From: Pseudomonadota bacterium
GTDB lineage: Bacteria > Pseudomonadota > Alphaproteobacteria > Sphingomonadales > Sphingomonadaceae
Assembly: GCA_049323815.1 (NCBI GenBank)
Contig: JBMOOB010000020.1
Location: 20,184-84,183 of the forward strand
Direction of reading: 5' to 3'
Length of the DNA: 64,000 bases
The notes beneath the pieces are model-generated. The model was not told the origin of the DNA. It was given only the letters and a program-made list of their open reading frames with translations, and ran no database searches. A program made the translations under genes and the position numbers. Below are positions 36,605 through 53,501 of this stretch, in pieces (the stretch's first letter is position 1; every line of letters begins with the position of its first letter).

Positions 36605-37404
36605 CAGTTTTCCTCTGGGCCGCCGCCGAAGCGGGGCGCGCGTTTTTCCTTGAAGGCGATCAGGCCCTCGGTGGCGTCGGGTTCGGTGGTGGCATAGGCA
36701 TGGACGAACGCGATCTCGGCGCGCAGCCCCTCGGCATAGCCGGTGTCGAGCGTCAGGTTGGCGAGCCGCTTGGCGCCGGCGAGGCCGACGGGGCTCTTCT
36801 TCGCCAGTCCGTCGATCCAGGCATCGGCGGCCGCCATCAGCGCACCATCGGGAACGACTTTGGTTACCAGCCCCCAGCGCTCGGCAGTCTCGGCGTCGAG
36901 CAGTTCGCCGGTCAGCATCAGATGCTTGGCGCGCAGCATGCCGATCGCACGCGGCAACCGCTGCGACCCGCCCGCGCCGGGCAACTGGCCGAAGTTCAGA
37001 TGGCCGTCGCCGATTTTTGCCGAAGCACCCGCGATCGCCATGTCGCACGCCAGCAGCACTTCGATGCCGCCCGCCACGCACACGCCGTTGACCGCCGCGA
37101 TCCAGATCGCGCGCGCCGCCTCTATCCCCGTCAGCATCGCGAAGAAATCGTCGAGGAACGCCTGGAACGCCGCCGGATCGCGATAGAGGCGGATATAGCC
37201 GTCCAGGTCGCCGCCGGCCGAGAAGCTGCGCCCCTCGCCCGTCAGCACGACGAAGCGGATCGCGGCATCCGCCTCGATTTCCGCCACCACTGCCTTCAGT
37301 TCCTTGACGGTCGACCAGTCGAGCGGATTGAGCTTGTCGGGCCGCGCCAGTGTGACGCGCGCGACATGCCCCGATTTCTCCAGCCGCAGGTTCTGATAGG
37401 TCAT
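36604..37404 (-). CDS. Enoyl-CoA hydratase/isomerase family protein
   Basis: FSAGGDL, AAVNGVCVAGGIE, PGAGGSQRLPR. The second catalytic Glu position reads DGH. Confidence 0.9.
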   Translation of the reverse strand: MTYQNLRLEKSGHVARVTLARPDKLNPLDWSTVKELKAVVAEIEADAAIRFVVLTGEGRSFSAGGDLDGYIRLYRDPAAFQAFLDDFFAMLTGIEAARAIWIAAVNGVCVAGGIEVLLACDMAIAGASAKIGDGHLNFGQLPGAGGSQRLPRAIGMLRAKHLMLTGELLDAETAERWGLVTKVVPDGALMAAADAWIDGLAKKSPVGLAGAKRLANLTLDTGYAEGLRAEIAFVHAYATTEPDATEGLIAFKEKRAPRFGGGPEEN

Positions 37405-39026: not shown

Positions 39027-40065
39027 GCATCGTCTCCTCGAAATGTTGACCGAAGGTGCAGTCGGGGCCCAGCGCATGGTGCAGCACATGCTGCGCAATC
39101 GTGGCACGATGCTGCGCGGGCGTGCCCCAGGCCTGGCCGAGCGCGAGCGCGCGCTTCAGCACGAAATGCACATCGACTTCCCAGCTATATCCCATCGCGC
39201 CATGCACCTGCACGGCGGCATGGGCGGCCACGTCGGCGGCGGCGGCGGCGGCGATCTTGGCATGCGCGATGCGGACGCCGGCATGCGCATCTGCCGCCGC
39301 AAGCTGGGCGGCGGCGGCGATCACCACGGGCCGCGCGAACGCCACCCTGGTCTGCGCCGTCGCCAGATGGTGCTTCACCGCCTGGAACGATCCGATCGGC
39401 TTGCCGAACTGCTGGCGATCCCTGGTGTACGCCACCGACAGGTCGATCGCGCGCTGCGCCAACCCCAAGAGCTGCGCGGCGGCATAGAGTGCGCCGCGAT
39501 CACGCATCGCGTCGAGCATCGCGCGCCCTTCCTCGCCATCGGCGATGCGCGTGCGCGCCTCGGGCCGCCAGTCGACCGCGAACAGGCGGCGGAAGGGATC
39601 GAAGCTCTCCTCGCGGCGCAGCGTCACGGCATCGGCGGGGACCAGATGGACTTCATGCCCGTTCGCCAGGATCAGCGCGGCGGCGGTGTCGGCATCGGCG
39701 ACGAAGGGATTGACCGGATGGCCGACCGCCACCGTCTCGCCCGCCACCGCGCGCGCCAGCCAGTCGCCGGTCAGCATCGGCACCGCGACGCCGGCATGTT
39801 CGACCAGCGGCTCGGGCAGCGCCGCCGCGCCGCACGCGATCGCGACCAGCGCCATCTCGACCGGCCCCAGCCCCGCTCCGCCGGCGCTTTCGGGCGCGGC
39901 AAGGCCGGTCAGCCCCATCTCCACCAGTGCCTGCCAGCGCGCATCGTCGCGCGCCGCGCCGCTGTCGAGCAGGCGGCGCAGGTCGGCGCCGGTGCAGATC
40001 TCGCCCAACAGGCCGGCCACGGTTTCGGCCAGCATTTCCTGTTCCTCGCCAAGGCGGAATTCCAT
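39013..40065 (-). CDS. Acyl-CoA dehydrogenase, short subunit (FadE32/ScdM-like)
   Basis: MEFRLGEEQ.., about 350 aa, IGSFQAVKHHLA, VQVHGAMGYSWE; lacks the C-terminal Glu motif, as in alpha2beta2 ACAD partner subunits. Confidence 0.82.
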   Translation of the reverse strand: MEFRLGEEQEMLAETVAGLLGEICTGADLRRLLDSGAARDDARWQALVEMGLTGLAAPESAGGAGLGPVEMALVAIACGAAALPEPLVEHAGVAVPMLTGDWLARAVAGETVAVGHPVNPFVADADTAAALILANGHEVHLVPADAVTLRREESFDPFRRLFAVDWRPEARTRIADGEEGRAMLDAMRDRGALYAAAQLLGLAQRAIDLSVAYTRDRQQFGKPIGSFQAVKHHLATAQTRVAFARPVVIAAAAQLAAADAHAGVRIAHAKIAAAAAADVAAHAAVQVHGAMGYSWEVDVHFVLKRALALGQAWGTPAQHRATIAQHVLHHALGPDCTFGQHFEETMLEPA

Positions 40066-41237: not shown

Positions 41238-41987
41238 TCAGAACTCCGCCCGCTCGCCCGAACCGACAAAGGCGTCGCGCGCCTTCTGGCTGTCCTCGTG
41301 CAAATACATTTCCAGCGTGAAACCCTGTTCGAAACGATAGCCATGGTCGACGTCGCGCGGTTCGATGCCGTTCAGCGCCTCCTTGGCGATGGTGAGCGCC
41401 TTGCGGCTCTTCGACGCAATGACGCCGCAGAAGGCACGCGCTTCCTCGACCAGCCGGTCGCGCGGCACGATCTTCTCGACCGCGCCCAGCCGATATGCCT
41501 CGGCCGCGTCGATGCGCCCGGCGGTGAAAAAGGTCGCGCGGACCTTCTGGATCGGGAACATGCGCATCAGATGGCTGGCGCCGCCCATCGCGCCGCGATC
41601 GACCTCGGGCAGCGAGAAGAAGGCGTCGTCGGACGCGATCACCACGTCGGACGCGCCGCAGATGCCGATGCCCGATCCGATGACGAAGCCGTGCACCGCG
41701 CTGACCACCGGCACCTCGCAGTCGCGCACTGCCTTGAACGTGCGGTAATTGCCGCGATTGAGCCAGGTGATCCGTTCCGGATGCGCCTGCATCTCCTTGA
41801 TGTCGACGCCGCCGCAAAAGCCGCGCCCCTCGCCCCGGATCAGCACGCAGCGGACCTCGGGATTGCGGCCAAGGTCCTGGATCAGGTCGGGGACCTGGTT
41901 CCACCCGTCGCTGTCGAGTGCATTGACCGGCGGGTGGTCGAACACAATCTCGCCGATGCGGTCGCGGATGTTGGTGCGCACGGGCAT
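41238..41987 (-). CDS. echA20: Crotonase-family hydrolase EchA20/ScdY-like (steroid ring D opening)
   Basis: DHPPVNAL, RGEGRGFCGGVDIKEMQ, FSLPEVDRGAMGGASHL; closely resembles recalled EchA20 and sits in the same gene context. Confidence 0.8.
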   Translation of the reverse strand: MPVRTNIRDRIGEIVFDHPPVNALDSDGWNQVPDLIQDLGRNPEVRCVLIRGEGRGFCGGVDIKEMQAHPERITWLNRGNYRTFKAVRDCEVPVVSAVHGFVIGSGIGICGASDVVIASDDAFFSLPEVDRGAMGGASHLMRMFPIQKVRATFFTAGRIDAAEAYRLGAVEKIVPRDRLVEEARAFCGVIASKSRKALTIAKEALNGIEPRDVDHGYRFEQGFTLEMYLHEDSQKARDAFVGSGERAEF

Positions 41988-43084
41988 CAGGCCAGGGTCC
42001 CGGAGTTGGCGGATGGCAGGACAGGTGCGCCGGCCAGCGCGGCGATCCGCGCGCGGGCATCGCGTTCGATGGCGCAAAGCAGCTCGGCGACGCTCGGCAG
42101 GTCGGCCAGTCGCCCGGCGACCTGGCCGGTCGCCATCAGCCCCGCATCGGCATCGCCTTCGACGACGGCGCGCTGGATGCGCATCGGCGCCGCCGCCGCG
42201 CGGATCGCCTGCGCCAGCGACAGGCCGTGCGCGTGCATGCCGCGCGCCGAATGCAGCAAATCGCTCCAGGACGCGCCGGTCCGGCGCTTCATCTCCAGCC
42301 CCGCCGCGATCGCGTCGCGCCAGCCGCCCAGCATGCCGCCGCGCTCGATCCGGCGCAGCGCCGCGTTGCGGATCATGCGCTGGGGAATACCGTCTACGTC
42401 GGTCGTCACCGCGATGTCGTCGGTCGCGGCGGCGACATAACGCTGCTTGACTGCATCGGGCACCGGGCTTTCGCGCGTCATCAGAAAGCGCGTGCCCATG
42501 GCGATGCCCGCCGCGCCGAATGCCAGCGCCGCCGCCAGCCCGCGCCCGTCGGCAAAGCCACCCGCCGCGACAACCGGCGCCGACACGGCATCGATCACTT
42601 GCGGCAACAATACGGTCGATGCGACCGCCCCGGTATGGCCACCGCCCTCGCCGCCCTGGACGACGAGCATGTCGACGCCCATCGCCACCATCTTTTGCGC
42701 ATGCTTGACCGCGCCGACCGTGGGCACGCAGGCAATCCCCGCGTCGCGGAACCGCGCGATCATCGCGGCATCGGGCCCCCGGCCGAAGCTGACCGCGCGC
42801 ACCCGGTCGCGATTGGCGAGGATCAGTTCGACCAGCTCGCCCGCGCCCGGCTGGAACATATGGAAATTGACGCCGAACGCGCCCGGGGTCCGCGTACGCA
42901 CCTCGGCGATGCGATCGGCCGCGACCCGCGGCGTCATCACCGCCGCGCCCAGGAATCCGAACCCACCCGCGTCGGTCGTCGCCGCCACCAGCGCCGGTTC
43001 CGCGACCCATCCCATCGCGGTCTGGATCACCGGCAACCGACAACCGAGCAGCGCCGTCATCGGCGTGGCAAGCGCGTCGGTCAT
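41987..43084 (-). CDS. ipdC: IpdC/ScdK-like flavoprotein (nitronate monooxygenase family)
   Basis: PVIQTAMGWVA, AFGVNFHMFQPGA, QGGEGGGHTG, AAGGFADGRGL, MGTRFL. Confidence 0.8.
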   Translation of the reverse strand: MTDALATPMTALLGCRLPVIQTAMGWVAEPALVAATTDAGGFGFLGAAVMTPRVAADRIAEVRTRTPGAFGVNFHMFQPGAGELVELILANRDRVRAVSFGRGPDAAMIARFRDAGIACVPTVGAVKHAQKMVAMGVDMLVVQGGEGGGHTGAVASTVLLPQVIDAVSAPVVAAGGFADGRGLAAALAFGAAGIAMGTRFLMTRESPVPDAVKQRYVAAATDDIAVTTDVDGIPQRMIRNAALRRIERGGMLGGWRDAIAAGLEMKRRTGASWSDLLHSARGMHAHGLSLAQAIRAAAAPMRIQRAVVEGDADAGLMATGQVAGRLADLPSVAELLCAIERDARARIAALAGAPVLPSANSGTLA

Positions 43085-43965
43085 GATTCCCCGCGCTTGT
43101 TCGCGGCGGCCGCGCTCTTGCCTGTCACCCCCGCCAACGCATGGCCGGTGGTCAGGTCGTTCTGGGCATGCGCGAAATGATGCATATGAAAGACTGCGTC
43201 CATCGCGGTCCGCTTGCCGCGCAGATCCTCGACCTGGTGGATCGCCTGCTTGGTCAGCCACATGCCCAGCGACGCCTGCGGCACCAGCTTCGCCGCCATC
43301 GCCGCCGCCTCGTCGCGCAGCGCGTCGCGCGCGACGACGCGATTGACCATGCCGAACGACGCCGCGCGGTCGGCGCTCATCCGCTCGCCCAGCAGCAGGA
43401 ATTCCTTGGCGATGCGCGGCGGCAACTCAAAGGCATGGGCGAAATATTCGACGCCGGGAATGCCCATCATCGTCGACACCGGGTCCTGGAAGAAGGCATC
43501 TTCCGACGCGACGATCAGGTCGCAGACCCAGGCGAGCATCAGTCCCCCGGCGATGCACGCGCCCTGCACCATCGCAATCGTCGGCTTGGGCAAGTCGCGC
43601 CAGCGGCGACACATGCCCAGATAGACTTCCTGCTCGCGTGTATAAAGGAATTCCGCGCCCGGCCGTCCGACATGATCGGGCAGCAGATGCGCGCGATCGA
43701 AGCTGCGCGTCACATCGCGGCCCGGCGTGCCGATGTCGTGCCCGGCGGAGAAATGCTTGCCCGCGCCGCCCAGCACCACCGCCTTCACCTCGCGATCGTC
43801 GACCGCGCGCCGGAAGGCGGCGTCGAGCGCATAGGTCATCTGGCTGTTCTGGGCATTGTGGAACTGGGGTCGGTTCATCGTCACCCAGGCGACGCCCTCC
43901 GCCACTTCATAGAGGACCGGCGTGTCGGTTTCGTACACGACTCCGGGCGCGTCGGCGTCGCTCAT
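43081..43965 (-). CDS. Enoyl-CoA hydratase EchA13/ScdN-like
   Basis: MNRPQFHNAQNSQMTYALD, KHFSAGHDIGTPGRD, YLGMCRRWRDLPKPTIA, MGIPGVEYFAH. Confidence 0.82.
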   Translation of the reverse strand: MSDADAPGVVYETDTPVLYEVAEGVAWVTMNRPQFHNAQNSQMTYALDAAFRRAVDDREVKAVVLGGAGKHFSAGHDIGTPGRDVTRSFDRAHLLPDHVGRPGAEFLYTREQEVYLGMCRRWRDLPKPTIAMVQGACIAGGLMLAWVCDLIVASEDAFFQDPVSTMMGIPGVEYFAHAFELPPRIAKEFLLLGERMSADRAASFGMVNRVVARDALRDEAAAMAAKLVPQASLGMWLTKQAIHQVEDLRGKRTAMDAVFHMHHFAHAQNDLTTGHALAGVTGKSAAAANKRGES

Positions 43966-44048
43966 CGCGCGCGCCTTTCCGCACAACCGCCGCTGTCGGA
44001 CCGTCGACCGATCACGCCCACTCTCCTGTGTCTATCTGTTCTGCAAAT

Positions 44049-44077
44049 ACTATCTTTTACAGCTTTGAGGGCGTCAA
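44049..44077 (-). promoter_or_regulatory. Candidate internal sigma70-type promoter (TTGACG-N17-GATAGT) overlapped by the dyad TTGA-N5-TCAA
   Basis: AT-rich island upstream of the echA13-like gene with canonical 17-bp spacing. Confidence 0.45.
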
Positions 44078-44188
44078 GCGCGGCGCGATCCAATCGCCAT
44101 ATGCGAGAGTTGCCGATCCGCTATCGGACGACCCGTCCGCGAGGCCCGATGGCAAGGCAAAGCCGCGAGCGAGCGAGCAGTGCCACTG

Positions 44189-44260
44189 CCGTCTTTGCGA
44201 GCGCAGCGAAGCAATCCATGGACGCGGCACTGGATTGCTTCGCTGCGCTCGCAAGGACGG
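44189..44260. repeat. Palindromic repeat family A, copy 3 (most intact)
   Basis: CCGTCTTTGCGAGCGCAGCGAAGCAATCCA-12 nt loop-TGGATTGCTTCGCTGCGCTCGCAAGGACGG; 30-bp stem with one G-U pair. Confidence 0.85.
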
Positions 44261-44287
44261 CGGAGATTGATCGAGCCCCCCGACACG

Positions 44288-45085
44288 TCACGCCGCGCGG
44301 CGGTCGCCCGGCGGATCGCCCTTCAACAGCGTCGCGCGGATATTGTGCGGATCGAACCGGCGGATCACCGCCAGCGCTTCTTCGGTCGGCGCGGGGGTAA
44401 GCGGCGGCTCGCCGTCGACCAGCACGTCGAATCCGGTGTTCTCGCGCACCTGCTCCACGCTGATGCCGGGGTGCAGCGATACCAGCCGGATCGCATGGTC
44501 CGGCCCGCCGAAGTCCATCACGCACAGGTCGGTGACGATCAGCCGCAGGTCGAGCCCCAGCGGCTTGCGCCCGCCCGGCCAGCGCGCGGGATTATATCCG
44601 GCGGAGCAGACATAATCGACTTCGCCCGCGACCAGGCTGCGCTTGCTGTGCATCGGAATGAAATAGCTGTTCGGATGATTGACGCTGTTGCCCGGAAAGC
44701 CACGCGCGCCCAGCAGCGCCGCCTTGGGCCGGTCGTGGTCGCCGATCACGCTGATGTTGGTCTGGCCGAAACGGTCGATCTGCACCGGCGACACGAACGC
44801 ATGGCGCCGCCCGCCCCACAGATTGTCGAAAGTGCGCAGATAGGGCGCCCAGCCCTCTACCACCGGCTGGAAGTCGCCGCGCGGGCCGATCGGCACCGGT
44901 TGGTCGACCAGCGCGTTCTCCGCATCGGTAATCATCAGCGCCGGATTGAACGTCGCCTTGGCCAGGCTCGCCGCGAGCCGGGGAATCGGCGTGATGCCGG
45001 TCGCCAGCCATTCGGGGTAGCCGCGCCACGCCTCGGCGCAGGCAGCGATGAGCAGTTCGGATAGCGTGTAGGACGTGGCGGTCAT
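44288..45085 (-). CDS. ipdB: CoA-transferase-fold beta subunit IpdB/ScdL2-like
   Basis: MITDAE, WGGRRH, QIDRFGQTNIS, GARGFPGNSVNHPNSY, VTDLCVMDFGGPDH; matches recalled IpdB. Confidence 0.85.
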   Translation of the reverse strand: MTATSYTLSELLIAACAEAWRGYPEWLATGITPIPRLAASLAKATFNPALMITDAENALVDQPVPIGPRGDFQPVVEGWAPYLRTFDNLWGGRRHAFVSPVQIDRFGQTNISVIGDHDRPKAALLGARGFPGNSVNHPNSYFIPMHSKRSLVAGEVDYVCSAGYNPARWPGGRKPLGLDLRLIVTDLCVMDFGGPDHAIRLVSLHPGISVEQVRENTGFDVLVDGEPPLTPAPTEEALAVIRRFDPHNIRATLLKGDPPGDRRAA

Positions 45086-45102
45086 CGCGCTTCCCCCCGG
45101 TT

Positions 45103-45978
45103 TCAATAAATCGCCGGCGGCAGCGCGCGGACCGCGTCCGCGCCGCCGACCGAGCCAAGATAGACGGCATCGTCGACATCGACATGCGCCGCGCGATAGG
45201 CGGCCCAGGCCTCCGGGCTTTCGGCGGCGGCCGCATAGGTCTTCAGATGCGTGAGATCGAGCGCATAGTCGGGCGCGGCGCTGGTCGGATGCGCGCCGAA
45301 CGGCGCCTCCGCCACGCCCGCGATCAGCGACCGCTCGACCAGGTGGAAACGCGCGTTGGCGGGCAAGTCCAGCTCGGGCGTCTTCACCAGCCTTTCGGTC
45401 GTGACGAAGGCGCGCGTCGCGGCGCGCGCCATCAACTCGTCGAAAAAGGGGTCGAGCGACAGCGTCAGCACATTGCCCTTCTCATCGGCGCGATGGACGT
45501 GGAGCAGCGCGACATCGGGCTTCAGCGCGGGCATGGCGAGCAACGTCTCGCCATCGTCGAACGGGCTGGTGATCGTGCGCAGCTCGGGCGCCTCGGCGAT
45601 GGCGGTGCCGATGCCGACGCGCGTGGGCAGGAAGGGCAGCCGCATCGCCGCCGCGCGCAGACCCCAGTGGAGCATGCCCTCGTCCATTTCCCACACCGGC
45701 AGCCCGGCCTGGCGCGCCGCCTTGAAATGCGGCTCGATCGGAATGTGGTCGAGCGAGACGAAGGCAAAGATCAGCTTTTTCAGCTTGCCCGCCGCCGCCA
45801 GCATGCCGACGTCCGGGCCGCCATAGGCGATCACCGTCAAATCCTTCAGGTTCGACCGGGCGATGGCGCGGATCAGCGCCATCGGCTTGCGCCGCGTCGC
45901 CCAGCCGCCGATGGCGATGGTCATTCCGTCGGACAACTCTCCCACGATCTCTTCGACGGTCCTGCGCTTGTCGAGCAC
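45103..45978 (-). CDS. ipdA: CoA-transferase-fold alpha subunit IpdA/ScdL1-like (steroid ring C hydrolase)
   Basis: GTG start; DKRRTVEEIVGELSDGMTIAIGGWATRRKPMALIRAI..YGGPDVG..FVSLD..EMDEGM..AMRLPFLPTRVGIG. Confidence 0.87.
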   Translation of the reverse strand: MLDKRRTVEEIVGELSDGMTIAIGGWATRRKPMALIRAIARSNLKDLTVIAYGGPDVGMLAAAGKLKKLIFAFVSLDHIPIEPHFKAARQAGLPVWEMDEGMLHWGLRAAAMRLPFLPTRVGIGTAIAEAPELRTITSPFDDGETLLAMPALKPDVALLHVHRADEKGNVLTLSLDPFFDELMARAATRAFVTTERLVKTPELDLPANARFHLVERSLIAGVAEAPFGAHPTSAAPDYALDLTHLKTYAAAAESPEAWAAYRAAHVDVDDAVYLGSVGGADAVRALPPAIY

Positions 45979-46148
45979 GGCGCGGGCATCCTTTCCAAAT
46001 GCATCCTGTCGCACGAGGGCGCGCGACAGGGCCGGCGATGGCGGCCGACCTCCCCAAGTCGCCTCCACCGCCGAACCGGTTATACAGTGCCCGGTGGCCC
46101 GCCCGCACGTGCCCCACCCGCGCGGATCAGCACCACCGCCGGTTCCGT

Positions 46149-46514
46149 TCAGGCAAGCGCGACGCGGACAATCGCCGAGGCGCAAATGTGGTCGCGATCA
46201 CGCCCGACCACCTGCACATCGACGAAGCGGCTGCCGTCCAGGTGCCGCGCATAGACGCGCCCTGTCAGTTGCATGCCGTCGCGCGCGAATGTGCCGGGCC
46301 CCAGCACGCGGCCCAAATCGGCATGCGCGCATCCGGCCCAGGCGGCCACGCCCAGCCGGGCACGCTCCGCCCAGTCGGCGCCGGCCACGGCATCCCCGTC
46401 GAATTCGACGATGTCGCCGAGCTTCACATCGGCGAACCGCCGCCGCTGCCGCATCGACCATCCCCCTAGCGGACCGGCCGGGCGGGTGCGCCGCCGGGCC
46501 TGGCCCTGCGTCAC
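46149..46514 (-). CDS. Truncated/degenerate MaoC-type hot-dog protein (ChsH1-like)
   Basis: GTG overlaps the upstream TGA (alternative ATG at 46454). RRFADVKLGD..AAWAG..LTGRV..VDVQVVGRDRDHICASAIVRV resembles the ChsH1 C-terminal half; no D-x4-H hydratase motif. Confidence 0.55.
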   Translation of the reverse strand: MTQGQARRRTRPAGPLGGWSMRQRRRFADVKLGDIVEFDGDAVAGADWAERARLGVAAWAGCAHADLGRVLGPGTFARDGMQLTGRVYARHLDGSRFVDVQVVGRDRDHICASAIVRVALA

Positions 46515-47662
46515 GCGACTTCCGCCACCGCAGGCATGGCCTCGATCGCCGGCACCGCCGCCGATTCGAAGCCATAGAGCTTCTCGGCGTTGCCATAGAG
46601 AATCGCCGCCTTCGTCTGCGCCGGAACACCCGACATCGACGACTGGATCACGCGCCATGAATAGGGATAGTCGGCGCTGATGTGCGGATAGTCGGTCGAC
46701 CACAGCACACGCTCCGGATTCATCGAATCCAGGTTGTTCAGCCCAAAGCTGTCGGTCATGTAGCCGAAGTAGAAATGCTCATCGATATATTCGCTGGGCA
46801 GACGCTTCAGGCCGAAATGGCTGACCTTTTCCAGCCGCTGATAGTTGTTGTCGATCTGCTCCTTCACATAGGGCACCCAGCCGAAGTCGACTTCGGCGAA
46901 GGCCACCTTCAGGTTCGGGTAACGATCGAACACGCCGTTGAAGATGAATTCGATGCAGCGATTGGGCGCATCAAAGAAACGGCCATATCCCGGCAGCTTC
47001 GCCTTGTGCGGCGACGGCTTGTAGATGCCCAGCGCGACATGGATGTTGAAGCTGACGTCGCGCTCATGGATCGCGGCCCACAGGTAATCCTCTTCCGGCG
47101 ACATGACCGTCGAACCGTTGGGATAGGCCTGCGCCATCGCCGCGCGCATGCCGGGGCGGCCGAGCACGCGGTCGAGCTCGGCAACCGCCGTCCTGGCGCC
47201 GCCGCGATTGGGCAGGAACACCAGGCCGCAGAAACGGCTGGGGTCATAGGCGACATATTCCGAGACCCAGTCGTTATACGCCTGGACCAGCGCGATATGA
47301 AGTTCCTCGTCCTCGATCAGCGCCATCGCGGCCTGGACTGACGGCGTCGGGTACATGACTTCGGCGGTCACGCCATCGCGGTCCTGTTCCTTGATGCGTT
47401 CGGCCGGGTCCCAGCCGCCCTTGCGCATGTCTTCGAAGCGCATCCACGCCTTCATCTCCTCCGGCGGCAGGCCGGCGCAGGCGTTCCAGCCGAAATTGCG
47501 CGGTCCATCCAACCCTTCGAAGATCCAGCCGTCGCCTTCCTCGAAACTTTCGATCCGGGGCGCTCGGTCCTTGAATTTCGCGGGGACTCGCTTGGTGAAC
47601 AGGTCGCCGGGTTCGTTGAAATGGCTGTCGGCCGAAACCAGCCGTCGGGCTCCAAGTGGCAC
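46511..47662 (-). CDS. Amidohydrolase_2 family metalloenzyme (hydrolase/decarboxylase/hydratase-type)
   Basis: VSADSHFNEP, EQDRDGVTAEVMYP, FNIHV, AEVDFGW, LWSTDYPH. Confidence 0.88.
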   Translation of the reverse strand: MPLGARRLVSADSHFNEPGDLFTKRVPAKFKDRAPRIESFEEGDGWIFEGLDGPRNFGWNACAGLPPEEMKAWMRFEDMRKGGWDPAERIKEQDRDGVTAEVMYPTPSVQAAMALIEDEELHIALVQAYNDWVSEYVAYDPSRFCGLVFLPNRGGARTAVAELDRVLGRPGMRAAMAQAYPNGSTVMSPEEDYLWAAIHERDVSFNIHVALGIYKPSPHKAKLPGYGRFFDAPNRCIEFIFNGVFDRYPNLKVAFAEVDFGWVPYVKEQIDNNYQRLEKVSHFGLKRLPSEYIDEHFYFGYMTDSFGLNNLDSMNPERVLWSTDYPHISADYPYSWRVIQSSMSGVPAQTKAAILYGNAEKLYGFESAAVPAIEAMPAVAEVA

Positions 47663-47703: not shown

Positions 47704-47717
47704 TTGACTCGAGTCAA
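47704..47717. promoter_or_regulatory. Perfect 14-bp palindrome TTGACTCGAGTCAA
   Basis: Lies in the AT-rich divergent region heading the long minus-strand operon and the nitroreductase; has FNR/FixK-box geometry (TTGAY-N4-RTCAA). Confidence 0.6.
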
Positions 47718-47838
47718 GCATCCATCGCAATTTTCCAGCACTAAACCGAGTTCGGCGCGCAACCGACCCGAGGGGCCTTTCCTCGCTTTACTAATAAAGA
47801 TAGAAAGTGCAAGAGATCCGTACTTGGGAGAGAGACAG

Positions 47839-48453
47839 ATGGCGACCCACGCCGACATCATGGAAACCATCCCCGCGGCGCCGCGTCCTGCGGCGCGCGA
47901 AGCGTTGGAAATGCTGGCCAGTCGACGTTCGCCGGCCCCCGACACGCTGGTCGCGCCAGCCCCCGGCGCCGAGGAAATCGAAACGATGCTGCGCATCGCG
48001 ACGCGGGTGCCCGACCATGGCCGCATCGCGCCATGGCGACTGATCCTGATCGCCGGAGAGGCAAAGGCCAACTGGCTCGCGAAGCTGATGGAGATCGCCG
48101 AATCGCGCGACGACGCACCCAAGGCGCGTGTCTCCGCGCGCAAGCTCGCGAGCGCGCCGCTCGTCGTGGTGCTGGTGTCGTCCCCGACGCCAGGGCACAA
48201 GATTCCCGAGTGGGAACAACAGCTATCGGCGGGCGCGGTCGGCATGAACCTGCTCCACGCCGCGCACGCGCTGGGTTATGGCGCCAACTGGCTGACCGGC
48301 TGGCACGCGTACGACCCCGCCGCGACCGCGCTGCTGGGCCTGGGCGAGCAGGAGAAGGTCGCGGCGGTGATGCCGATGGGCACAGTCGCCCAGCCGACGG
48401 CGGAACGCGAGCGCCCGGACACCGACCGTATCGCTACATGGCTGGAGCTCTGA
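47839..48453 (+). CDS. Nitroreductase family protein (YdjA-like)
   Basis: LASRRSP, RVPDHGRIAPWR, EWEQQLSAGA, GYGANWLTGW. Confidence 0.9.
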   Translation: MATHADIMETIPAAPRPAAREALEMLASRRSPAPDTLVAPAPGAEEIETMLRIATRVPDHGRIAPWRLILIAGEAKANWLAKLMEIAESRDDAPKARVSARKLASAPLVVVLVSSPTPGHKIPEWEQQLSAGAVGMNLLHAAHALGYGANWLTGWHAYDPAATALLGLGEQEKVAAVMPMGTVAQPTAERERPDTDRIATWLEL

Positions 48454-48641: not shown

Positions 48642-49424
48642 TCAGGCACGAAGCGCGGCGGACGATACGGTCTGGCTGGTGTCGAACCCGTGGCGACGCT
48701 CGCCCCCACCGCCCGAATAATGCTCGCGGATCGCGCGCTCGGCGGTCATCGCGTCGCCTTCGGCAATGGCGCGATAGATGCGCTCATGCTCGCGCGCCAG
48801 CGACAGGCGGACCGACCGGTCGACGAAGGTCCCGTGCACGGCATTGTCCAGTGCATGCGTATCGACCTGCGCGGTCCACATCTGCTCCAGCGCGCCGACC
48901 ACCAGGCTCATCGTCTGGTTGCCGCAATACGCGACCAGTTCGGTATGGAACGCGCGGGCAAGCGGAATGAACCGGCTGGGTTCGTCGATCGCTTCCATGC
49001 TGGCGTCGATGTTGGCGCGCAGCCGCGGCAGCACCGTCGTCTCGCGGTCGGGACGCATCGCCGCCTGCGCCGCGCAGGCGGGCTCCAGCAGGCGCATCGC
49101 GTCGATCAGGTCGATCAGCGGCACGCCACGCGACTGAAGCACCAGCGCCAGCATATAGGCCGCAGTCCCGGGCTGCGGCAGATGGACGATCGCGCCGCCC
49201 ACATTGCCGCGCAGCACGGTGATGAGGCCTTCGGTTTCCAGGATGCGGAACGCCTCGCGGATCGCGGGCGGACTGACGCCGAATTCGGTCATCAGTTCGT
49301 CTTGCTTGGGAAGCAGCGCGCCGTCGCTCAACGTGCCCGAAAGGATGCGCGCGCGCAGGCTGTCCGCGACGATTTCGGCGACACGCGGCTGGCGAAGGCG
49401 CCGCTTCGTCCTGAACTGTTCCAT
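48642..49424 (-). CDS. GntR family regulator (FadR subfamily)
   Basis: LPKQDELMTEFGVSPPAIREAFRILETEGLI wHTH followed by an FCD domain. Confidence 0.92.
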   Translation of the reverse strand: MEQFRTKRRLRQPRVAEIVADSLRARILSGTLSDGALLPKQDELMTEFGVSPPAIREAFRILETEGLITVLRGNVGGAIVHLPQPGTAAYMLALVLQSRGVPLIDLIDAMRLLEPACAAQAAMRPDRETTVLPRLRANIDASMEAIDEPSRFIPLARAFHTELVAYCGNQTMSLVVGALEQMWTAQVDTHALDNAVHGTFVDRSVRLSLAREHERIYRAIAEGDAMTAERAIREHYSGGGGERRHGFDTSQTVSSAALRA

Positions 49425-49572
49425 CCCCTAGGCTTCCAATCCGTCAATGCCGCCCGGAACCTGTTGCCCCGTCCGGAGGGCCGAAAGGCGCAGGACATAC
49501 GCGCGCTATCCATCATTGCAAGTCTGTGACGAATATCATCGCGCCAAATCAAAGACAAATGGGAGAGAGACG

Positions 49573-50493
49573 ATGCCCACCGATCCAAAGCGGATGCAAA
49601 GCTTTACCATCAGCATCACGCCCTTCACCGCCGGAGGCGCGATCGACGAAGCGGGGTTGCGCGCGCATCTGACTCGGCTGGGCGCGGCGGGCGTCGGCGT
49701 CTATGTCGGCGGAGGCGGCAGCGGCGAAGGCTATACGCTGGACGATGCCGAGACCGAGCGGCTGCTGGCGATCGCGGTCGAGACGCTGAAGGGCGTGGTG
49801 CCGATCCGCGCGATGGGCGTCGAGCCGCGCACCGCGAAGCAGATGATCGCCTTTCTGGAGCGTGCAGAGCGCGCCGGCATGGACGCAGCGCAGGTCTATT
49901 CGCTCGACGTCGGGCATGGCCATGTGCCGACGCCGAAGGAACTCGACGCCTATTTCGACGAAGTGATGCGCAACAGTTCGATGCCGCTGGTGCTGTCGAC
50001 GCACCAGTCGGTCGGCTATGTCATCCCTGCGCCGGTCATTATCGAACTGTTCGCGCGACACCCGCATCTGACCGGACTGAACATCAGCCATCAGGATCCG
50101 AACTACCTGCGCACGCTGATCGACGCGCTGGGCGACCGCATCGACATCTGCGTCGGCGGACCGCATCAGGCGCCGATGGCGCTGGCGCTGGGCGCGCAGG
50201 GGTTCCTGACGTCGGAGGGCAATCTGGCGCCGCGCCTGGTGATGCGCGTGGTTGACGCGGCGCGGCGCGGCGACGGCAATGCATTCCTGGACGAATGGGG
50301 CAAGCTGCTGCGGCTGTTCATGGCGCTCTACGGCAATGGCGGCATCCGGGTGACCAAGGCAGTGCTGACGAAGCTGGGCGCGGCGGGCGGCTATCCGCGC
50401 GCGCCGCGCCTGCCGTCGGAGGACGATGCGCTCGCCCGCGCGATGGACGTGGTCGAGGCGTTGGGCATCGCCGAGTCCGAAGGGTTGCGCTGA
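49573..50493 (+). CDS. DapA/NAL-family TIM-barrel protein lacking the Schiff-base lysine
   Basis: ITPFTAGGAIDEAGLRAHL..GGSGEG fold signature; VLSTHQ and GLNISH occupy the positions of LYN and GIKE/D. Confidence 0.8.
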   Translation: MPTDPKRMQSFTISITPFTAGGAIDEAGLRAHLTRLGAAGVGVYVGGGGSGEGYTLDDAETERLLAIAVETLKGVVPIRAMGVEPRTAKQMIAFLERAERAGMDAAQVYSLDVGHGHVPTPKELDAYFDEVMRNSSMPLVLSTHQSVGYVIPAPVIIELFARHPHLTGLNISHQDPNYLRTLIDALGDRIDICVGGPHQAPMALALGAQGFLTSEGNLAPRLVMRVVDAARRGDGNAFLDEWGKLLRLFMALYGNGGIRVTKAVLTKLGAAGGYPRAPRLPSEDDALARAMDVVEALGIAESEGLR

Positions 50494-50842: not shown

Positions 50843-51724
50843 TTACTCGGCGGCGATCGCCTTGGGCATCGGATCGCCATCGGGCCCGTCGTCCAGGCTG
50901 GCGATGCGTTCGTCCCAGAAGGCCGATTCGCGCGACGTGTCGATCGTGTAGGCGCCGCGCACGCCGAACTTCCGCCGCGCTTCTTCGAGCGGCAGGTCGA
51001 GCCAGTCCTCATAATGCGGCAGGAACAGCGGATCGGATTCGCGGCCGATCCGCATGCCGTGCTCGGCCAGGTCCCACATCTTCAGGAACAGCTCGGGATA
51101 GTGCAGCGGCCCGCGCACGAACATCGGCACGGTCAGCAGCGTGTTCTGCACATTGAGCAGCCCCGCCAGCTCCGGCGAGAAATAGCGGAACAGATTGCCG
51201 TATTTCAGATAGGCCGGGATGATCTCGCCCAGCCCGTCAAAACCGCCACCGCCAAGGATGTGCATGAAGTCGTGGATCTGGACGCCGCGCAGGAAGAAAT
51301 ATTCGAACGACGAACGCGGTTCAAAGGTGGGGATGATGTCCACCTCCATGTTCGCGCCCTTCAGCTGCTTGTACCAGATGCCGCCCAGCGACCCTTCGGG
51401 GCACGACGCCATGTCCTCGCGCGTCAGCCGCGCGAGCCAGCGTTCGTCGAGCCATGTGTCGAGTTCGGGCCAGCCGAGCCGTGCCTCGTTGAACAGCGCC
51501 TCGATCCGCGCATGGTCCTGGATCTCGCGCACCGCCTCGATCAACATCGGGATGCCATAGGTCGGCGGCATGTCGCGGCCGTTGCGCTTCAACGTCTGCG
51601 TCGTGATCCATTCGCGGATACGATAGTCGTTCAGATATTTGGACGACGAAATGAGCGCGGTGCTCTCCGTCGCGACTGCCTTCCGCCCCCTTTGGAGGTA
51701 CGGAAGATCCTCTTCCTTCACCAT
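50843..51724 (-). CDS. Coq4-like metal-binding protein
   Basis: CPEGSLG and HDFMH-x11-E (HDFMHILGGGGFDGLGE), the Coq4 HDxxH-x11-E motif. Confidence 0.78.
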   Translation of the reverse strand: MVKEEDLPYLQRGRKAVATESTALISSSKYLNDYRIREWITTQTLKRNGRDMPPTYGIPMLIEAVREIQDHARIEALFNEARLGWPELDTWLDERWLARLTREDMASCPEGSLGGIWYKQLKGANMEVDIIPTFEPRSSFEYFFLRGVQIHDFMHILGGGGFDGLGEIIPAYLKYGNLFRYFSPELAGLLNVQNTLLTVPMFVRGPLHYPELFLKMWDLAEHGMRIGRESDPLFLPHYEDWLDLPLEEARRKFGVRGAYTIDTSRESAFWDERIASLDDGPDGDPMPKAIAAE

Positions 51725-51755
51725 ATTTTCTCCTCCTGCTTGCGATCGAGGGGCG

Positions 51756-53501
51756 TCAGGCCGCGACCGCGGCGTCGGCCACCTCGATCACCGGGCTTAC
51801 GAACGTACCGGGCAGCGCGCCCGTGAACGCGCCATTCTCAAATGTCGCTACGCCGTTCACCAGCGTCAGCCGCATCGGCGCGGCGTCACGGCTGAACCGC
51901 CAGGTCAGCCCGCCCTCGCCGTCCGGCACGTCGAAGCTGCGCTTCAACGGGCGCGTTTCGATCTCGTCCAGATTGAACACGGCGATGTCGGCGCGCATGC
52001 CGGGCTTCAGATAGCCGCGGTCGCCGAAGTTGAAATGCTCGGCCTGCTTGCCCGTCTGGACATAGACCGCTTCTTCCAGCGTCAGCTCGCCGTTTTTCAC
52101 GAACTGGGTGAAGAACAGGATATTCTCGCCGCCGCCGCACAGCATCTGGCCGTGCGCGCCCGCGTCGGAAATGCCGCCGACGGTCCGCGTCGACTTGAGC
52201 ATCTGGATCGTCTTTTCATGCTCCATCGGATGCGGCACGCGATTGACGATCGACTGGACGCCGTTTTCGATCACCCAGTCGGCCAGCGCGTCCGACGGAT
52301 GCACGCCGCGCTGTTCGGCCAGGTCCTTGAGCGTCAGACCGAGCGGCCCCGCGCCGGTTTCCGAATCCATCAGCAGCATCATGTGCGGATTGGCGACCAG
52401 CGACTGCTTGAACGCCTTGTTATCCCAGCTGTCGCGCGCCTGGGCGCGGAATTCGGGATCGCGCAGCAGCGCGAGCTTCGCTTCCTCGGTCGGCGCCTGG
52501 ACGACCTGATGCCAGACATATTCGTTCGCCTGGGCGAACGACGAGCTGGAGAAGAAATTGAGCGCCGTCGTCGGCGGTACATGCGCGAAGCTCGGCCAGA
52601 AATCGAGGTCGTCTTCCTTCTGACGCGCGGTAATTTCCCACATCTTGTCGCGGATCGTGTCCTGGAAGCGCAACAGGCCGCCGGCGCCGGCAAGCTGGAC
52701 GCGCACGCCCAGGCCGCGGCACAAGTCGCCGAGCCGCTCCATCTGCTCGGGCGCCTTCAAGTGGAAAAAGGTGTCGAGGATGACCTGCAGCTGCGTGCCA
52801 TGGTTGCGCGCCAGCACGCCCAGCAGCGCCTTCCATTCGGCGTCGTCGGCGACCAGGCTGGGGACCGGACGGTCCTTGCTGTCATGGTCCATCAGGTTCG
52901 ACGACATGCCCAGCGCGCCCGCGCGGATGCCGTCTTCCAGCAGCGCGCACATCTTTTCGATCTCTTCAGGCGTCGCGGTGCGCGACCAGGCATCCATGCC
53001 CATCACCGCCAGGCGGATGGCGATATGGCCGACATAGCCGGCGATGTTGGTCGACGTCGGGCAGTTCTTTTCCACCGACGCGCGATATTCCGACCAGGTG
53101 CGCCAGTCCCAGGGCAGCCGGTCGAGGAACGGCTGGATCGGCACTTCCTCGAAGAAAGTGAAGATCTTGACCATCTCAAGCCGCACTTCGGGATCGTCCG
53201 AAACGGGCGCGGCGGTGAAGCCGCAATTGCCGATCACGGCGGTCGTCACGCCATAGCCGGGGAGCGGGTCGAGGCTCGGCTGCCACCACATCACGGCATC
53301 CATGTGCGTGTGGCATTCGATGAAGCCCGGCGTGACCAGGCAATCGGTCGCGTCGACCACGCGTTCGTCGGTGCCGGCGGCCAGGTCCGGCGCGATCTCG
53401 GCGATGCTGCCGTCGCGCACGCGCACATCGGCGACATAACGCGGCGCGCCGGTACCGTCGACGACCGTGCCGCCCTTGATGAGGATATTCTCCACAGCCA
53501 C
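51756..53501 (-). CDS. Amidohydrolase, N-acyl-D-amino-acid deacylase-like
   Basis: IKGGTVVDGTG, VTPGFIECHTHMD, GVTTAVIGNCG, ISDAGAH, GMRADIAVF. Confidence 0.88.
   Translation of the reverse strand: MAVENILIKGGTVVDGTGAPRYVADVRVRDGSIAEIAPDLAAGTDERVVDATDCLVTPGFIECHTHMDAVMWWQPSLDPLPGYGVTTAVIGNCGFTAAPVSDDPEVRLEMVKIFTFFEEVPIQPFLDRLPWDWRTWSEYRASVEKNCPTSTNIAGYVGHIAIRLAVMGMDAWSRTATPEEIEKMCALLEDGIRAGALGMSSNLMDHDSKDRPVPSLVADDAEWKALLGVLARNHGTQLQVILDTFFHLKAPEQMERLGDLCRGLGVRVQLAGAGGLLRFQDTIRDKMWEITARQKEDDLDFWPSFAHVPPTTALNFFSSSSFAQANEYVWHQVVQAPTEEAKLALLRDPEFRAQARDSWDNKAFKQSLVANPHMMLLMDSETGAGPLGLTLKDLAEQRGVHPSDALADWVIENGVQSIVNRVPHPMEHEKTIQMLKSTRTVGGISDAGAHGQMLCGGGENILFFTQFVKNGELTLEEAVYVQTGKQAEHFNFGDRGYLKPGMRADIAVFNLDEIETRPLKRSFDVPDGEGGLTWRFSRDAAPMRLTLVNGVATFENGAFTGALPGTFVSPVIEVADAAVAA

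What the first reader, a model, noticed from the sequence alone, without database searches (positions are those of the whole stretch)
49573..50493. DapA/NAL-family protein with the catalytic Lys replaced by Asn and the catalytic Tyr missing
Seen: by eye alignment to E. coli DHDPS, IIGIKEA (K161) corresponds to LTGLNIS (codon AAC), ILYNVP (Y133) to VLSTHQ, and GTTGE to GGSGE. Established: this family forms a Schiff base through that Lys. The ORF is intact, has an SD and is divergent from a GntR gene, so it looks maintained. Inference: either a non-Schiff-base enzyme (metal-dependent or dehydratase) or a ligand-binding pseudoenzyme.
Basis: partly seen in the sequence, partly recalled or inferred. 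Interest (0 to 1): 0.7.

Follow-up and report, generated by a model that had tools for sequence, protein, structure and literature searches.

The report
Lysine-less DapA-fold protein beside diiron oxygenase
This intact gene encodes a protein shaped like the lysine-dependent DapA/sialic-acid aldolases but lacking their catalytic lysine and tyrosines. It belongs to a large, unstudied, conserved branch of that family that travels with PtmU3/DitZ-type oxygenase genes in ring-compound breakdown clusters, so it probably does a different, still unknown chemistry.

Summary
The ORF at 49573-50493 (+) is a PF00701 DHDPS/NAL-fold protein (81.5 bits; AF2 pLDDT 94). It has Asn170 (AAC) where the Schiff-base Lys belongs and Ser142 for Tyr133. 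Thr44, Tyr107 and Arg138 are also replaced.

This is not a private mutation. Asn170 is invariant in 121 homologues from at least five phyla. All 108 Lys-less sequences examined form one clade, separate from the K-bearing paralogues of the same genomes. dN/dS is about 0.19. The genome has a separate, normal dapA.

No solved structure or paper in the held library covers this clade. The scan has met the same clade before on other DNA.

New here: the gene is linked to a PF04909 "amidohydrolase" that is really a PtmU3/DitZ-type dinuclear oxygenase (ARO). An ARO lies within 10 kb in 51 of 80 loci and is operon-adjacent in 24. An ARO orthologue is present in all 11 carrier genomes tested. The gene is also linked to an Ltp2-type retro-aldolase, a CoA ligase, a crotonase and a GntR regulator, here beside steroid C/D-ring (ipdAB) genes.

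Best reading (about 0.45): a Lys-independent enzyme that acts on the hydroxylated product. An auxiliary or ligand-binding role is not excluded. The function is unproven.

The parts
49573..50493 (+). Lys-less DHDPS/NAL-fold protein (306 aa, P0001)
   Evidence: PF00701 at 81.5 bits. AF2 model pLDDT 94, pTM 0.91. Foldseek TM 0.83-0.88 to NAL/DHDPS structures. GC3 0.85, like the neighbouring genes.
50080..50082 (+). Codon AAC = Asn170, at the position of the Schiff-base Lys (E. coli K161)
   Evidence: Alignments. Invariant in 121 of 121 close homologues. Never Lys in about 105 representatives of 50%-identity clusters.
49996..50004 (+). Codons for Ser142-Thr143-His144, replacing the Tyr133-Asn-Val of DapA
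   Evidence: S142, T143 and H144 are invariant in the 46-sequence alignment A1.
49561..49567 (+). Shine-Dalgarno sequence GGGAGAG, 5 nt before the ATG
   Evidence: Read from the sequence. Purine-rich GGAGA-type blocks stand at the same place in orthologous loci.
49512..49522 (+). Conserved upstream motif ATCATTGCAAG (consensus ATCWTTGCAAG), a candidate -35 element or GntR operator half-site
   Evidence: The only block conserved in the GntR-DHDPS-like intergenic region across 15 sphingomonad loci. Unique in the 64-kb window, 0.04 matches expected by chance. Its function is inferred.
48642..49424 (-). Divergent GntR/FCD-family regulator
   Evidence: PF00392 plus PF07729. A homologue lies within 10 kb in 46 of 80 loci. 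It has the highest mirror-tree correlation with the DHDPS-like protein, r 0.90.
46511..47662 (-). PF04909 'amidohydrolase' that looks like an amidohydrolase-related dinuclear oxygenase (ARO; PtmU3/DitZ-like)
   Evidence: Best PDB hits are PtmU3 6omp (2.8e-34) and DitZ 8uyr (8.7e-30). It shares the ADSH, IH, AE and DYPH motifs with them. A homologue lies within 10 kb in 51 of 80 loci and is operon-adjacent in 24.
47704..48453 (+). Nitroreductase-family gene (start codon uncertain), part of the conserved sphingomonad neighbourhood
   Evidence: PF00881. Present in 23 of 80 loci, all sphingomonad or caulobacterial.
50843..53501 (-). Convergent Coq4-like gene (50843-51724) and D-aminoacylase-like Amidohydro_3 gene (51756-53501)
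   Evidence: Pfam. Conserved next to the DHDPS-like gene in about 20 sphingomonad loci at 72-82% identity.
35447..39107 (-). Ltp2-like thiolase-fold aldolase (35447-36604), crotonase (36604-37404) and acyl-CoA ligase (37401-39107). These are the other members of the module that accompanies the DHDPS-like gene in other phyla.
   Evidence: Pfam. The Ltp2-like protein is 45% identical to the one adjacent to the DHDPS-like gene in actinomycete locus L081. The ligase is 55-57% identical to ligases adjacent to the DHDPS-like gene in Acidimicrobiaceae.
41987..46185 (-). Steroid C/D-ring genes: IpdA and IpdB CoA-transferase subunits, EchA20-like crotonase, IpdC-like NMO. These are context, not part of the conserved module.
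   Evidence: Pfam CoA_trans, ECH_1 and NMO. The same block lies near the DHDPS-like gene in Hyphococcus.

Best explanation
The gene encodes a functional member of a large, monophyletic, Lys-less branch of the DHDPS/NAL (PF00701) fold. This branch has discarded the whole class I aldolase apparatus (Lys161, Tyr133, Tyr107, Thr44, and the Arg138 of DapA) and cannot use a Schiff base.

In its place it carries conserved polar residues on the same C-terminal face of the barrel. Across the wider clade these are commonly Glu84, Arg86, Asp112, His115, Ser142, Glu215 and Asn217. In this subfamily His117, His144, Asn170, His173 and Asp175 are conserved as well. The GxSGE carboxylate loop is retained.

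I infer that the protein is a second catalytic component working with a PtmU3/DitZ-type dinuclear oxygenase (ARO). It would act on the hydroxylated acyl-CoA or carboxylate intermediate that the oxygenase produces, and the GntR/FCD regulator would control it. The reaction would be a lyase, dehydratase or isomerase step run by general acid-base or metal-assisted chemistry.

In this genome the unit sits at the edge of a steroid or terpenoid-type alicyclic acid catabolic island, together with an Ltp2-type retro-aldolase, a CoA ligase and a crotonase.

Shown: the residue replacements, their conservation, the clade, purifying selection and the gene linkage. Inferred: catalytic activity, the kind of reaction, any metal, and the substrate.
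For: -
- Asn170 is invariant in 121 of 121 homologues at 57-99% identity.
- No Lys occurs at that column in about 105 representatives of 50%-identity clusters.
- The Lys-less sequences form one clade with support 0.94 and a stem length of 0.70, apart from 10 K-bearing paralogues.
- Median dN/dS is 0.19.
- Of 68 invariant columns, 38 fall in the 72 positions just after the beta-strand ends (Fisher p 4e-11). Twenty invariant polar residues lie there.
- The genome has a separate true dapA scoring 269 bits.
- The neighbouring PF04909 gene matches PtmU3 and DitZ and keeps their DxH, IH, AE and DYPH motifs. PMC13154177 describes these proteins as dinuclear hydroxylases.
- Linkage to the ARO: a homologue lies within 10 kb in 51 of 80 loci. 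In 24 loci the ARO stop codon lies 7-21 bp before the DHDPS-like start, or overlaps it by 17 bp. An ARO orthologue of at least 62% identity was found in 10 of 10 further carrier genomes. Neither gene was found in 150 other Sphingomonadales genomes.
- A second Lys-less subfamily (about 40% identity) also sits beside ARO-signature PF04909 genes in 3 of 4 contigs. In the fourth it follows a TauD-type hydroxylase. This fits 'acts after a hydroxylase' better than 'ARO-specific subunit'.
- An unbiased neighbour census adds an Ltp2-like aldolase (26 loci), a CoA ligase (24), a crotonase (21) and an SDR (49).
Against: - No activity, ligand or metal has been measured for any member.
From memory of E. 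coli DHDPS, several of them (the Y54, R86 and H115 equivalents) may map to the dimer-interface or allosteric cleft rather than the pocket centre.
- In the divergent clade-wide alignment, enrichment of conservation on the catalytic face is not significant (p 0.08). Position 170 itself varies (N, H, Q, T, A, I, R, V), so Asn is not a universal catalytic residue.
- The mirror-tree correlation with the ARO is only 0.51.
- Operon adjacency fits a structural partner just as well.
- In sphingomonads the gene is monocistronic and lies 2-23 kb from the ARO.
Confidence: 0.45

Rival explanations
1. The protein is a non-catalytic auxiliary or structural partner of the dinuclear oxygenase, analogous in role to AibH1 in AibH1H2. 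It would stabilise the ARO, gate its substrate or help metallate it.
For: There is tight same-strand adjacency with 7-21 bp gaps or overlaps in 24 loci, and ARO and the DHDPS-like gene co-occur in every carrier genome tested. Precedent exists: AibH2 needs a second TIM-barrel subunit whose conserved metal site is only structural (PMC12141560 and PMC10401708). High-potential AROs lack the Rieske partner genes of the other AROs (PMC13154177).
Against: [quoted passage not shown] A Frankiaceae genome has 16 ARO-like genes but only 2 Lys-less DHDPS-like genes. At least three ARO subgroups (30-34%, 41-48% and 60-88% identity to the window's ARO) pair with the clade, and the mirror-tree r is only 0.51. 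Some members sit with a TauD-type hydroxylase or an ABC transporter and no ARO. Invariant polar residues lie on the catalytic face rather than on an obvious surface patch.
Confidence: 0.22
2. The protein is a ligand-binding pseudoenzyme. It keeps the carboxylate-binding loop and binds, sequesters or presents a small acid without transforming it, for example for the GntR regulator or for transport.
For: The GGSGE loop is retained with Ser50 invariant. The strongest co-evolution is with the FCD-type regulator, r 0.90. A distant member follows an ABC transporter with a solute-binding protein.
Against: The clade has gained a conserved Glu, Arg, Asp, His and Glu set that binding alone does not require. 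The protein evolves about as slowly as the enzyme genes around it, at 73-78% identity between sphingomonads, against 72-88% for the neighbours. No known binding-only member of this fold exists, to my knowledge.
Confidence: 0.13
3. The protein is still a Schiff-base aldolase or DapA-type enzyme that uses a different lysine.
For: It is a Pfam family member with the canonical fold. K262 is invariant.
Against: K262 lies in the C-terminal helix 258-267 and is present in all 10 K-bearing paralogues too, so it is a family-wide structural residue. The other lysines (K6, K73, K89, K122, K244, K267) are either not conserved or lie off the catalytic face. Tyr133, Tyr107 and Thr44 are also gone. Every NCBIfam equivalog score is far below its cut-off.
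Confidence: 0.02
4. The gene is a decaying relic of an aldolase gene with no function.
For: All canonical catalytic residues are lost.
Against: The frame is intact and a Shine-Dalgarno sequence is present. There are 68 invariant columns across at least five phyla. dN/dS is about 0.19. Synteny is conserved.
Confidence: 0.02

Closest known systems
DHDPS/NAL superfamily of class I (Schiff-base) pyruvate aldolases, Pfam PF00701: DapA, NanA, YagE/YjhH KDG aldolases, KdgD, HOGA1 (e.g. PDB 4i7u, 6xgs, 4imc, 2v8z)
   Same: Same (beta/alpha)8 barrel plus C-terminal helical domain, with TM 0.83-0.88. The HMM match runs over the whole length. Retained features are the TPF motif after beta1, the GxxGE loop, and the family-wide K262, R276 and P278.
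   Different: Lys161 becomes Asn, Tyr133 becomes Ser, Tyr107 becomes Gly within a loop three residues longer, Thr44 becomes Gly and Arg138 becomes Val. Only 17-25% identity. The protein belongs to a separate clade. Scores are 3-15 times below every equivalog cut-off. A Schiff-base mechanism is impossible.
Class II (metal-dependent) pyruvate aldolases HpcH/HpaI and DmpG/BphI
   Same: This is a resemblance only, recalled from memory. Those enzymes use an Asp/Glu-bound divalent metal plus an Arg and a His on a TIM barrel. The residues gained by this clade (Glu84, Arg86, Asp112, His115, Glu215) are of the same kinds.
   Different: No sequence or family relationship exists: there is no PF03328 or HMGL-like hit. 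The spatial clustering of the residues and any metal binding were not tested.
AibH1, the auxiliary subunit of the ARO hydroxylase AibH1H2
   Same: It is a second TIM-barrel protein encoded next to an ARO and needed by it, with a conserved but non-catalytic site (PMC12141560, PMC10401708).
   Different: AibH1 is itself a PF04909 paralogue, not a DHDPS-fold protein. No complex of an ARO with a DHDPS-like protein has been reported in the papers read.
PtmU3 (platensimycin pathway) and DitZ (diterpenoid hydroxylase), the closest characterised relatives of the partner gene
   Same: The window's PF04909 protein aligns over its full length with both and keeps the DxH, IH, AE and DYPH motifs. Like them, it sits among terpenoid or steroid-type acid-processing genes.
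   Different: Only about 30% identity. Its substrate and its metal are untested. The ARO papers read do not mention a DHDPS-like neighbour for PtmU3 or DitZ.

Membership tests
DHDPS/NAL superfamily (Pfam PF00701) | HMM score above the gathering threshold over the full domain | tested here: met
   81.5 bits against a cut-off of 22.1, covering model positions 5-288 of 289.
DHDPS/NAL superfamily (Pfam PF00701) | (beta/alpha)8 barrel with a C-terminal three-helix domain | tested here: met
   AF2 model pLDDT 94. The top 50 Foldseek hits are all NAL or DHDPS structures, TM 0.80-0.88.
DHDPS/NAL superfamily (class I aldolase mechanism) | Schiff-base lysine at the end of strand beta6 (E. coli DapA K161, NanA K165) | tested here: not met
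   Asn170 occupies this position. No member of the clade has Lys there.
DHDPS/NAL superfamily (class I aldolase mechanism) | Catalytic Tyr at the end of beta5 (Y133/Y137), plus the Thr44-Tyr107 relay in DapA | tested here: not met
   These positions hold Ser142, Gly49 and Gly116. All 10 K-bearing paralogues keep Tyr and Thr.
DHDPS/NAL superfamily | GxxGE loop that binds the pyruvate carboxylate | tested here: inconclusive
   The sequence motif is kept as GGSGE, with Ser50, Gly51 and Glu52 invariant. Whether it binds a carboxylate is untested.
DapA, 4-hydroxy-tetrahydrodipicolinate synthase (TIGR00674 equivalog) | Score above the equivalog cut-off, Arg138 for aspartate semialdehyde, and being the genome's lysine-pathway copy | tested here: not met
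   70.9 bits against a cut-off of 206. Arg138 is replaced by Val147. The genome has another copy scoring 269 bits with all catalytic residues.
NanA, KdgD, HpaI-NOT-DapA and archaeal KDG aldolase equivalogs | Score above the NCBIfam cut-off | tested here: not met
   Scores of 25-61 bits against cut-offs of 278-397.
Class II metal-dependent aldolases (HpcH/HpaI, HMGL-like) | Family HMM match, and a divalent metal bound by Asp/Glu or His with a catalytic Arg | tested here: not met
   No Pfam hit other than PF00701. Metal binding cannot be tested with these tools.
Lys-less DHDPS-fold clade (unnamed; defined here and in earlier scan notes) | Groups with the Lys-less sequences apart from K-bearing paralogues, has a non-Lys residue at the beta6 position, and carries the ExR (beta3), DxGH (beta4), SxH (beta5) and SEGN (beta8) motifs | tested here: met
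   The motifs are: E84-P-R86, D112-V-G-H115, S142-T-H144 and S214-E-G-N217.
ARO auxiliary subunit (AibH1-like) | PF04909 paralogue forming a heterodimer with the catalytic ARO | tested here: not met
   The protein is PF00701, not PF04909. Complex formation cannot be tested here.

The most novel reading that the evidence does not exclude
A class I aldolase scaffold has been rebuilt into a Lys-independent C-C lyase, or a dehydratase. Together with a PtmU3/DitZ-type dinuclear oxygenase it would form a two-step 'hydroxylate, then cleave' system. This system would open rings or remove branches at carbons that ordinary beta-oxidation cannot handle, in steroid, terpenoid or alicyclic acid catabolism. 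The Asn, Ser and His residues would replace the iminium by polarising a thioester or carboxylate carbonyl, and Asp112/His115 or a bound metal would act as the base.
Probability: 0.25. Interest if true: 0.8.

Novelty: new variant of a known kind. Interest (0 to 1): 0.62.

Why it matters
Every characterised member of the DHDPS/NAL family uses the beta6 lysine. Genome annotation therefore labels these proteins '4-hydroxy-tetrahydrodipicolinate synthase' or 'dihydrodipicolinate synthase family protein', which is certainly wrong for the first label. A conserved branch spanning many phyla that has swapped the entire catalytic set would be a new chemistry on an old and much-studied scaffold.

The linkage to amidohydrolase-related dinuclear oxygenases gives a concrete experimental handle. 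That superfamily has only recently been recognised, and most of its physiological partners and downstream steps are unknown.

The module sits in steroid, bile-acid or terpenoid-type catabolic islands. Identifying its reaction could fill a gap in how bacteria break quaternary or tertiary ring carbons.

Tried and rejected
1. **Compensating lysine.** I checked all seven lysines. Only K262 is invariant. It lies in the C-terminal helical domain and is shared with the K-bearing paralogues, so I rejected it.

2. **Private mutation or pseudogene.** Rejected on conservation and dN/dS.

3. **Rosetta-stone fusion with the ARO.** The long homologue P0213 is a tandem DHDPS-DHDPS protein. P0060, P0133 and P0269 carry no extra domain.

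4. **Literature.** Five full-text searches for a Lys-less DHDPS protein, or for DHDPS together with steroid, DUF35 or amidohydrolase terms, found nothing relevant. The ARO papers do not mention a PF00701 neighbour. The PtmU3 paper (PMC6743330) is not held. The DitZ preprint is on ChemRxiv and was not readable.

5. **Bile-salt transcriptome of Caenibius tardaugens (PMC12882949).** No usable link to this gene. The supplementary table was cut when stored.

6. **Order-wide co-occurrence test.** It was uninformative as a statistic, because only the window's own genome among 151 Sphingomonadales carries either gene.

7. **Mirror-tree test for an obligate complex.** Inconclusive, with r 0.51 for the ARO.

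8. **Clade-wide test of conservation on the catalytic face.** Not significant, p 0.08. Only the test within the narrow family is significant.

9. **Metagenome locus scans for distant members.** The alignments were too divergent, and the single-protein query gave one irrelevant locus.

10. **Promoter, terminator and inverted-repeat scans of the intergenic region.** Nothing beyond chance.

12. **Model coordinates are not exposed**, so I could not measure distances between the candidate catalytic residues.
Full report
**1. The observation**

The ORF at 49573-50493 (+) is open and encodes 306 aa. A GGGAGAG ribosome-binding site lies 5 nt upstream of the ATG. The codon bias (GC3 0.85) matches the neighbouring genes. 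A longer ORF starting at 49447 is possible, but homologues are 303-312 aa long and align from residue 1-10, so 49573 is the start.

Pfam assigns the whole protein to PF00701 (81.5 bits). Every NCBIfam equivalog (dapA, KdgD, HpaI-NOT-DapA, nanA, archaeal KDG aldolase) scores 3-15 times below its cut-off.

Three HMMER alignments to solved DHDPS structures place Asn170 (AAC, 50080-50082) opposite the Schiff-base lysine and Ser142 opposite Tyr133. A multiple alignment with ten K-bearing paralogues taken from carrier genomes gives the same result. It also shows Gly49/Ser50 for Thr44/Thr45, Gly116 for Tyr107 (inside a loop that is three residues longer) and Val147 for the Arg138 of DapA. A profile of 44 divergent Lys-less sequences aligns its consensus 'ivgvNvat' to 'IVGVKDAT' of 6xgs.

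**2. Not a private mutation**

A search of 5.8 billion proteins returned more than 1,000 relatives. In the best 120 (57-99% identity) Asn170 is invariant. The blocks GGGGSGEGY, RAMGxEPRT, QxYSLDxGHGH, STHQSVGY, N-x-SH-x-D, LSSEGNLAP and YGNGGIRVTKA are also invariant or nearly so.

An exhaustive HMMER search of 1.84 billion cluster representatives gave 137 hits at E<=1e-30. Among the roughly 105 full-length sequences in the top 150, none has Lys at this column. The states are N 58, H 7, Q 6, T 5, A 5, I 5, R 5, V 4 and others.

In a FastTree phylogeny the 108 Lys-less sequences form one clade (support 0.94, stem length 0.70). This clade is separate from the true DapA sequences and from two other K-bearing paralogue groups of the same genomes.

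Pairwise dN/dS among 15 orthologues has a median of 0.19, with dS about 0.87, which is close to saturation.

The window's genome has a second PF00701 gene on another contig. It scores 269 bits and keeps all catalytic residues, so lysine biosynthesis is provided for.

No lysine can substitute for the missing one. K262, the only invariant lysine, lies in the C-terminal helix 258-267 and is present in every K-bearing paralogue as well.

**3. Structure**

AlphaFold2, run with a 46-sequence alignment, gives a confident model (pLDDT 94, pTM 0.91). Foldseek matches only NAL/DHDPS structures, at TM 0.80-0.88 and 17-25% identity.

No solved structure belongs to the Lys-less clade. The best single-sequence hit is 4i7u at 3.8e-16, and the best profile hits are all canonical DHDPS.

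Within the close family, 38 of 68 invariant columns fall in the 72 positions at or just after the C-terminal ends of the eight strands (Fisher p 4e-11). Twenty invariant polar residues lie there: T16, E52, E84, R86, Q107, Y109, D112, H115, S142, T143, H144, S146, Y149, N170, H173, D175, Y178, S214, E215 and N217.

In the divergent clade-wide alignment the same test is not significant (p 0.08). Residues common to most of the wider clade but absent from the K-bearing paralogues are E84, R86, D112, H115, S142 and E215. Position 170 itself varies, so Asn is a feature of this subfamily and not the clade's universal catalytic residue. A distant member on an Agrobacterium plasmid has Ala there but keeps EPR, DLGH, SSH and SEGN.

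I could not obtain the model's coordinates. Whether these residues form one site, or bind a metal, remains an inference.

**4. Genomic context in the window**

On the minus strand upstream lie these genes:
- a PF04909 'amidohydrolase' (46511-47662)
- IpdA- and IpdB-like CoA-transferase subunits
- an EchA20-like crotonase
- an IpdC-like NMO
- two acyl-CoA dehydrogenases
- an acyl-CoA ligase (37401-39107)
- a crotonase (36604-37404)
- an Ltp2-like thiolase-fold protein (35447-36604)

The DHDPS-like gene itself is monocistronic. It is divergent from a GntR/FCD regulator and convergent with a Coq4-like plus D-aminoacylase-like pair.

**5. The partner is an oxygenase, not a hydrolase**

The best solved relatives of the PF04909 protein are PtmU3 (2.8e-34) and DitZ (8.7e-30), ahead of the ACMSD-type decarboxylases. 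It shares their N-terminal ADSH (DxH rather than HxH) motif and their IH, AE and DYPH motifs.

PtmU3, DitZ, AibH2 and SfbO define the 'amidohydrolase-related dinuclear oxygenases' (AROs), which are C-H hydroxylases with Fe2 or Mn/Fe cofactors (PMC13154177, PMC10811679, PMC10401708). None of these papers mentions a DHDPS-like neighbour.

**6. Conserved linkage**

A scan of one genome per prokaryotic species found 80 loci. They come from Sphingomonadales, Caulobacterales, Rhodobacterales, Rhodospirillales, Acidimicrobiales, other Actinomycetota, Dormiibacterota and Acidobacteriota.

A homologue of the window's ARO lies within 10 kb in 51 of 80 loci. In 24 loci the ARO gene ends 7-21 bp before the DHDPS-like start codon, or overlaps it by 17 bp.

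An unbiased clustering of all neighbouring ORFs ranks the families as follows:
- SDR, 49 loci
- ARO, 49 loci
- GntR, 30 loci
- Ltp2-like thiolase-fold protein, 26 loci
- acyl-CoA ligase, 24 loci
- crotonase, 21 loci
- acyl-CoA dehydrogenase, 20 loci

A recurrent operon in Acidimicrobiia reads GntR | DUF35 - Ltp2-like - ARO - DHDPS-like.

Five sphingomonad genomes have no ARO within 10 kb of the DHDPS-like gene. All five carry an 85-87% identical ARO orthologue 13-23 kb away on the same contig. Five further genomes from other phyla carry a 62-65% orthologue. In contrast, neither gene was found in 150 other Sphingomonadales genomes, including nine of the same genus. Both genes therefore belong to a rare, patchily distributed island.

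The association extends beyond this subfamily. For a second Lys-less subfamily (about 40% identity), three of four contigs have ARO-signature PF04909 genes (DxH plus D[YF]PH) directly beside the gene. The fourth contig has a TauD-type dioxygenase and an OYE flavoenzyme upstream in the same operon. A more distant plasmid member follows an ABC transporter instead.

**7. Interpretation**

The data show a maintained protein with a rebuilt catalytic face, co-inherited with C-H hydroxylases and with enzymes that act on branched or alicyclic acyl-CoA esters.

The reading I favour (about 0.45) is a second catalytic component that acts on the hydroxylated intermediate. The reaction would be a lyase, dehydratase or isomerase step using general acid-base or metal-assisted chemistry. 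A thioester or carboxylate cannot form the iminium that the lost lysine served, so losing the lysine fits such substrates.

Several points favour this reading over an ARO-specific structural subunit:
- One genome has 16 ARO-like genes but only two Lys-less DHDPS-like genes.
- At least three ARO subgroups, and a TauD-type hydroxylase, pair with the clade.
- The mirror-tree correlation with the ARO is only 0.51, against 0.90 with the GntR regulator.

The auxiliary-subunit reading (about 0.22, by analogy with AibH1) and a ligand-binding pseudoenzyme (about 0.13) remain open.

**8. Novelty**

I found no paper or solved structure for this clade. Database names are generic or wrong. The scan has met the same clade before in other genomes (notes e1-3537270, e1-5171373 and e1-5175697), and one of those notes already mentioned a neighbouring metal enzyme.

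- the identification of that neighbour as a PtmU3/DitZ-type oxygenase
- the Ltp2, ligase and crotonase module
- the genome-level co-occurrence of the two genes
- the placement of the unit beside steroid C/D-ring genes

**Limits**

All functional statements are inferences.

Noticed in passing
window 46511-47662 (-): This gene would be annotated 'amidohydrolase', but it is most similar to the dinuclear hydroxylases PtmU3 and DitZ and keeps their DxH, IH, AE and DYPH motifs. It lies on the same strand as, and upstream of, the ipdAB-echA20-ipdC steroid C/D-ring genes. An O2-dependent hydroxylation step may therefore feed that pathway here.
   Followed up: partly
window 49512-49522 (+): The motif ATCATTGCAAG (consensus ATCWTTGCAAG) is the only block conserved in the GntR-DHDPS-like intergenic region of 15 sphingomonad loci, and it is unique in the window. 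It is preceded in most loci by GCAATA about 20 nt upstream. It could be a -35 element or an operator.
   Followed up: partly
window 50843-53501 (-): A Coq4-like gene and a D-aminoacylase-like Amidohydro_3 gene form a pair that is conserved convergent to the DHDPS-like gene in about 20 sphingomonad loci (72-82% identity). Their role is unknown.
   Followed up: partly
genomes G156-G160 (behind loci L048, L049, L057, L065, L072): These genomes, mostly Actinomycetota MAGs plus one alphaproteobacterial MAG, carry 7-29 PF04909 ARO-like paralogues each at E<=1e-30. This is a very large expansion of a recently recognised oxygenase family.
   Followed up: no
L105 3148-8021: A Lys-less DHDPS-like gene of a second subfamily sits in an operon reading TauD-like dioxygenase - OYE/Pyr_redox_2 flavoenzyme - DHDPS-like - solute-binding protein. 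It is again paired with a hydroxylase, but not with an ARO.
   Followed up: no
P0213 (594 aa): This protein is a tandem fusion of two DHDPS-fold domains within the Lys-less clade.
   Followed up: partly
rows P0175, P0177, P0210, P0215, P0218, P0220, P0245, P0262; L097: A second subtype of Lys-less proteins keeps Asn at the beta6 position but lacks E84, R86, D112 and H115, having 'AG..' and 'RGP' instead. The clade therefore holds at least two different active-site designs.
   Followed up: no
whole island, window about 30-54 kb: Neither the DHDPS-like gene nor the ARO orthologue was found in 150 other Sphingomonadales genomes, including nine of the same genus. Orthologues at 55-65% identity do occur in Actinomycetota and Dormiibacterota. 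This points to horizontal spread of the module.
   Followed up: partly
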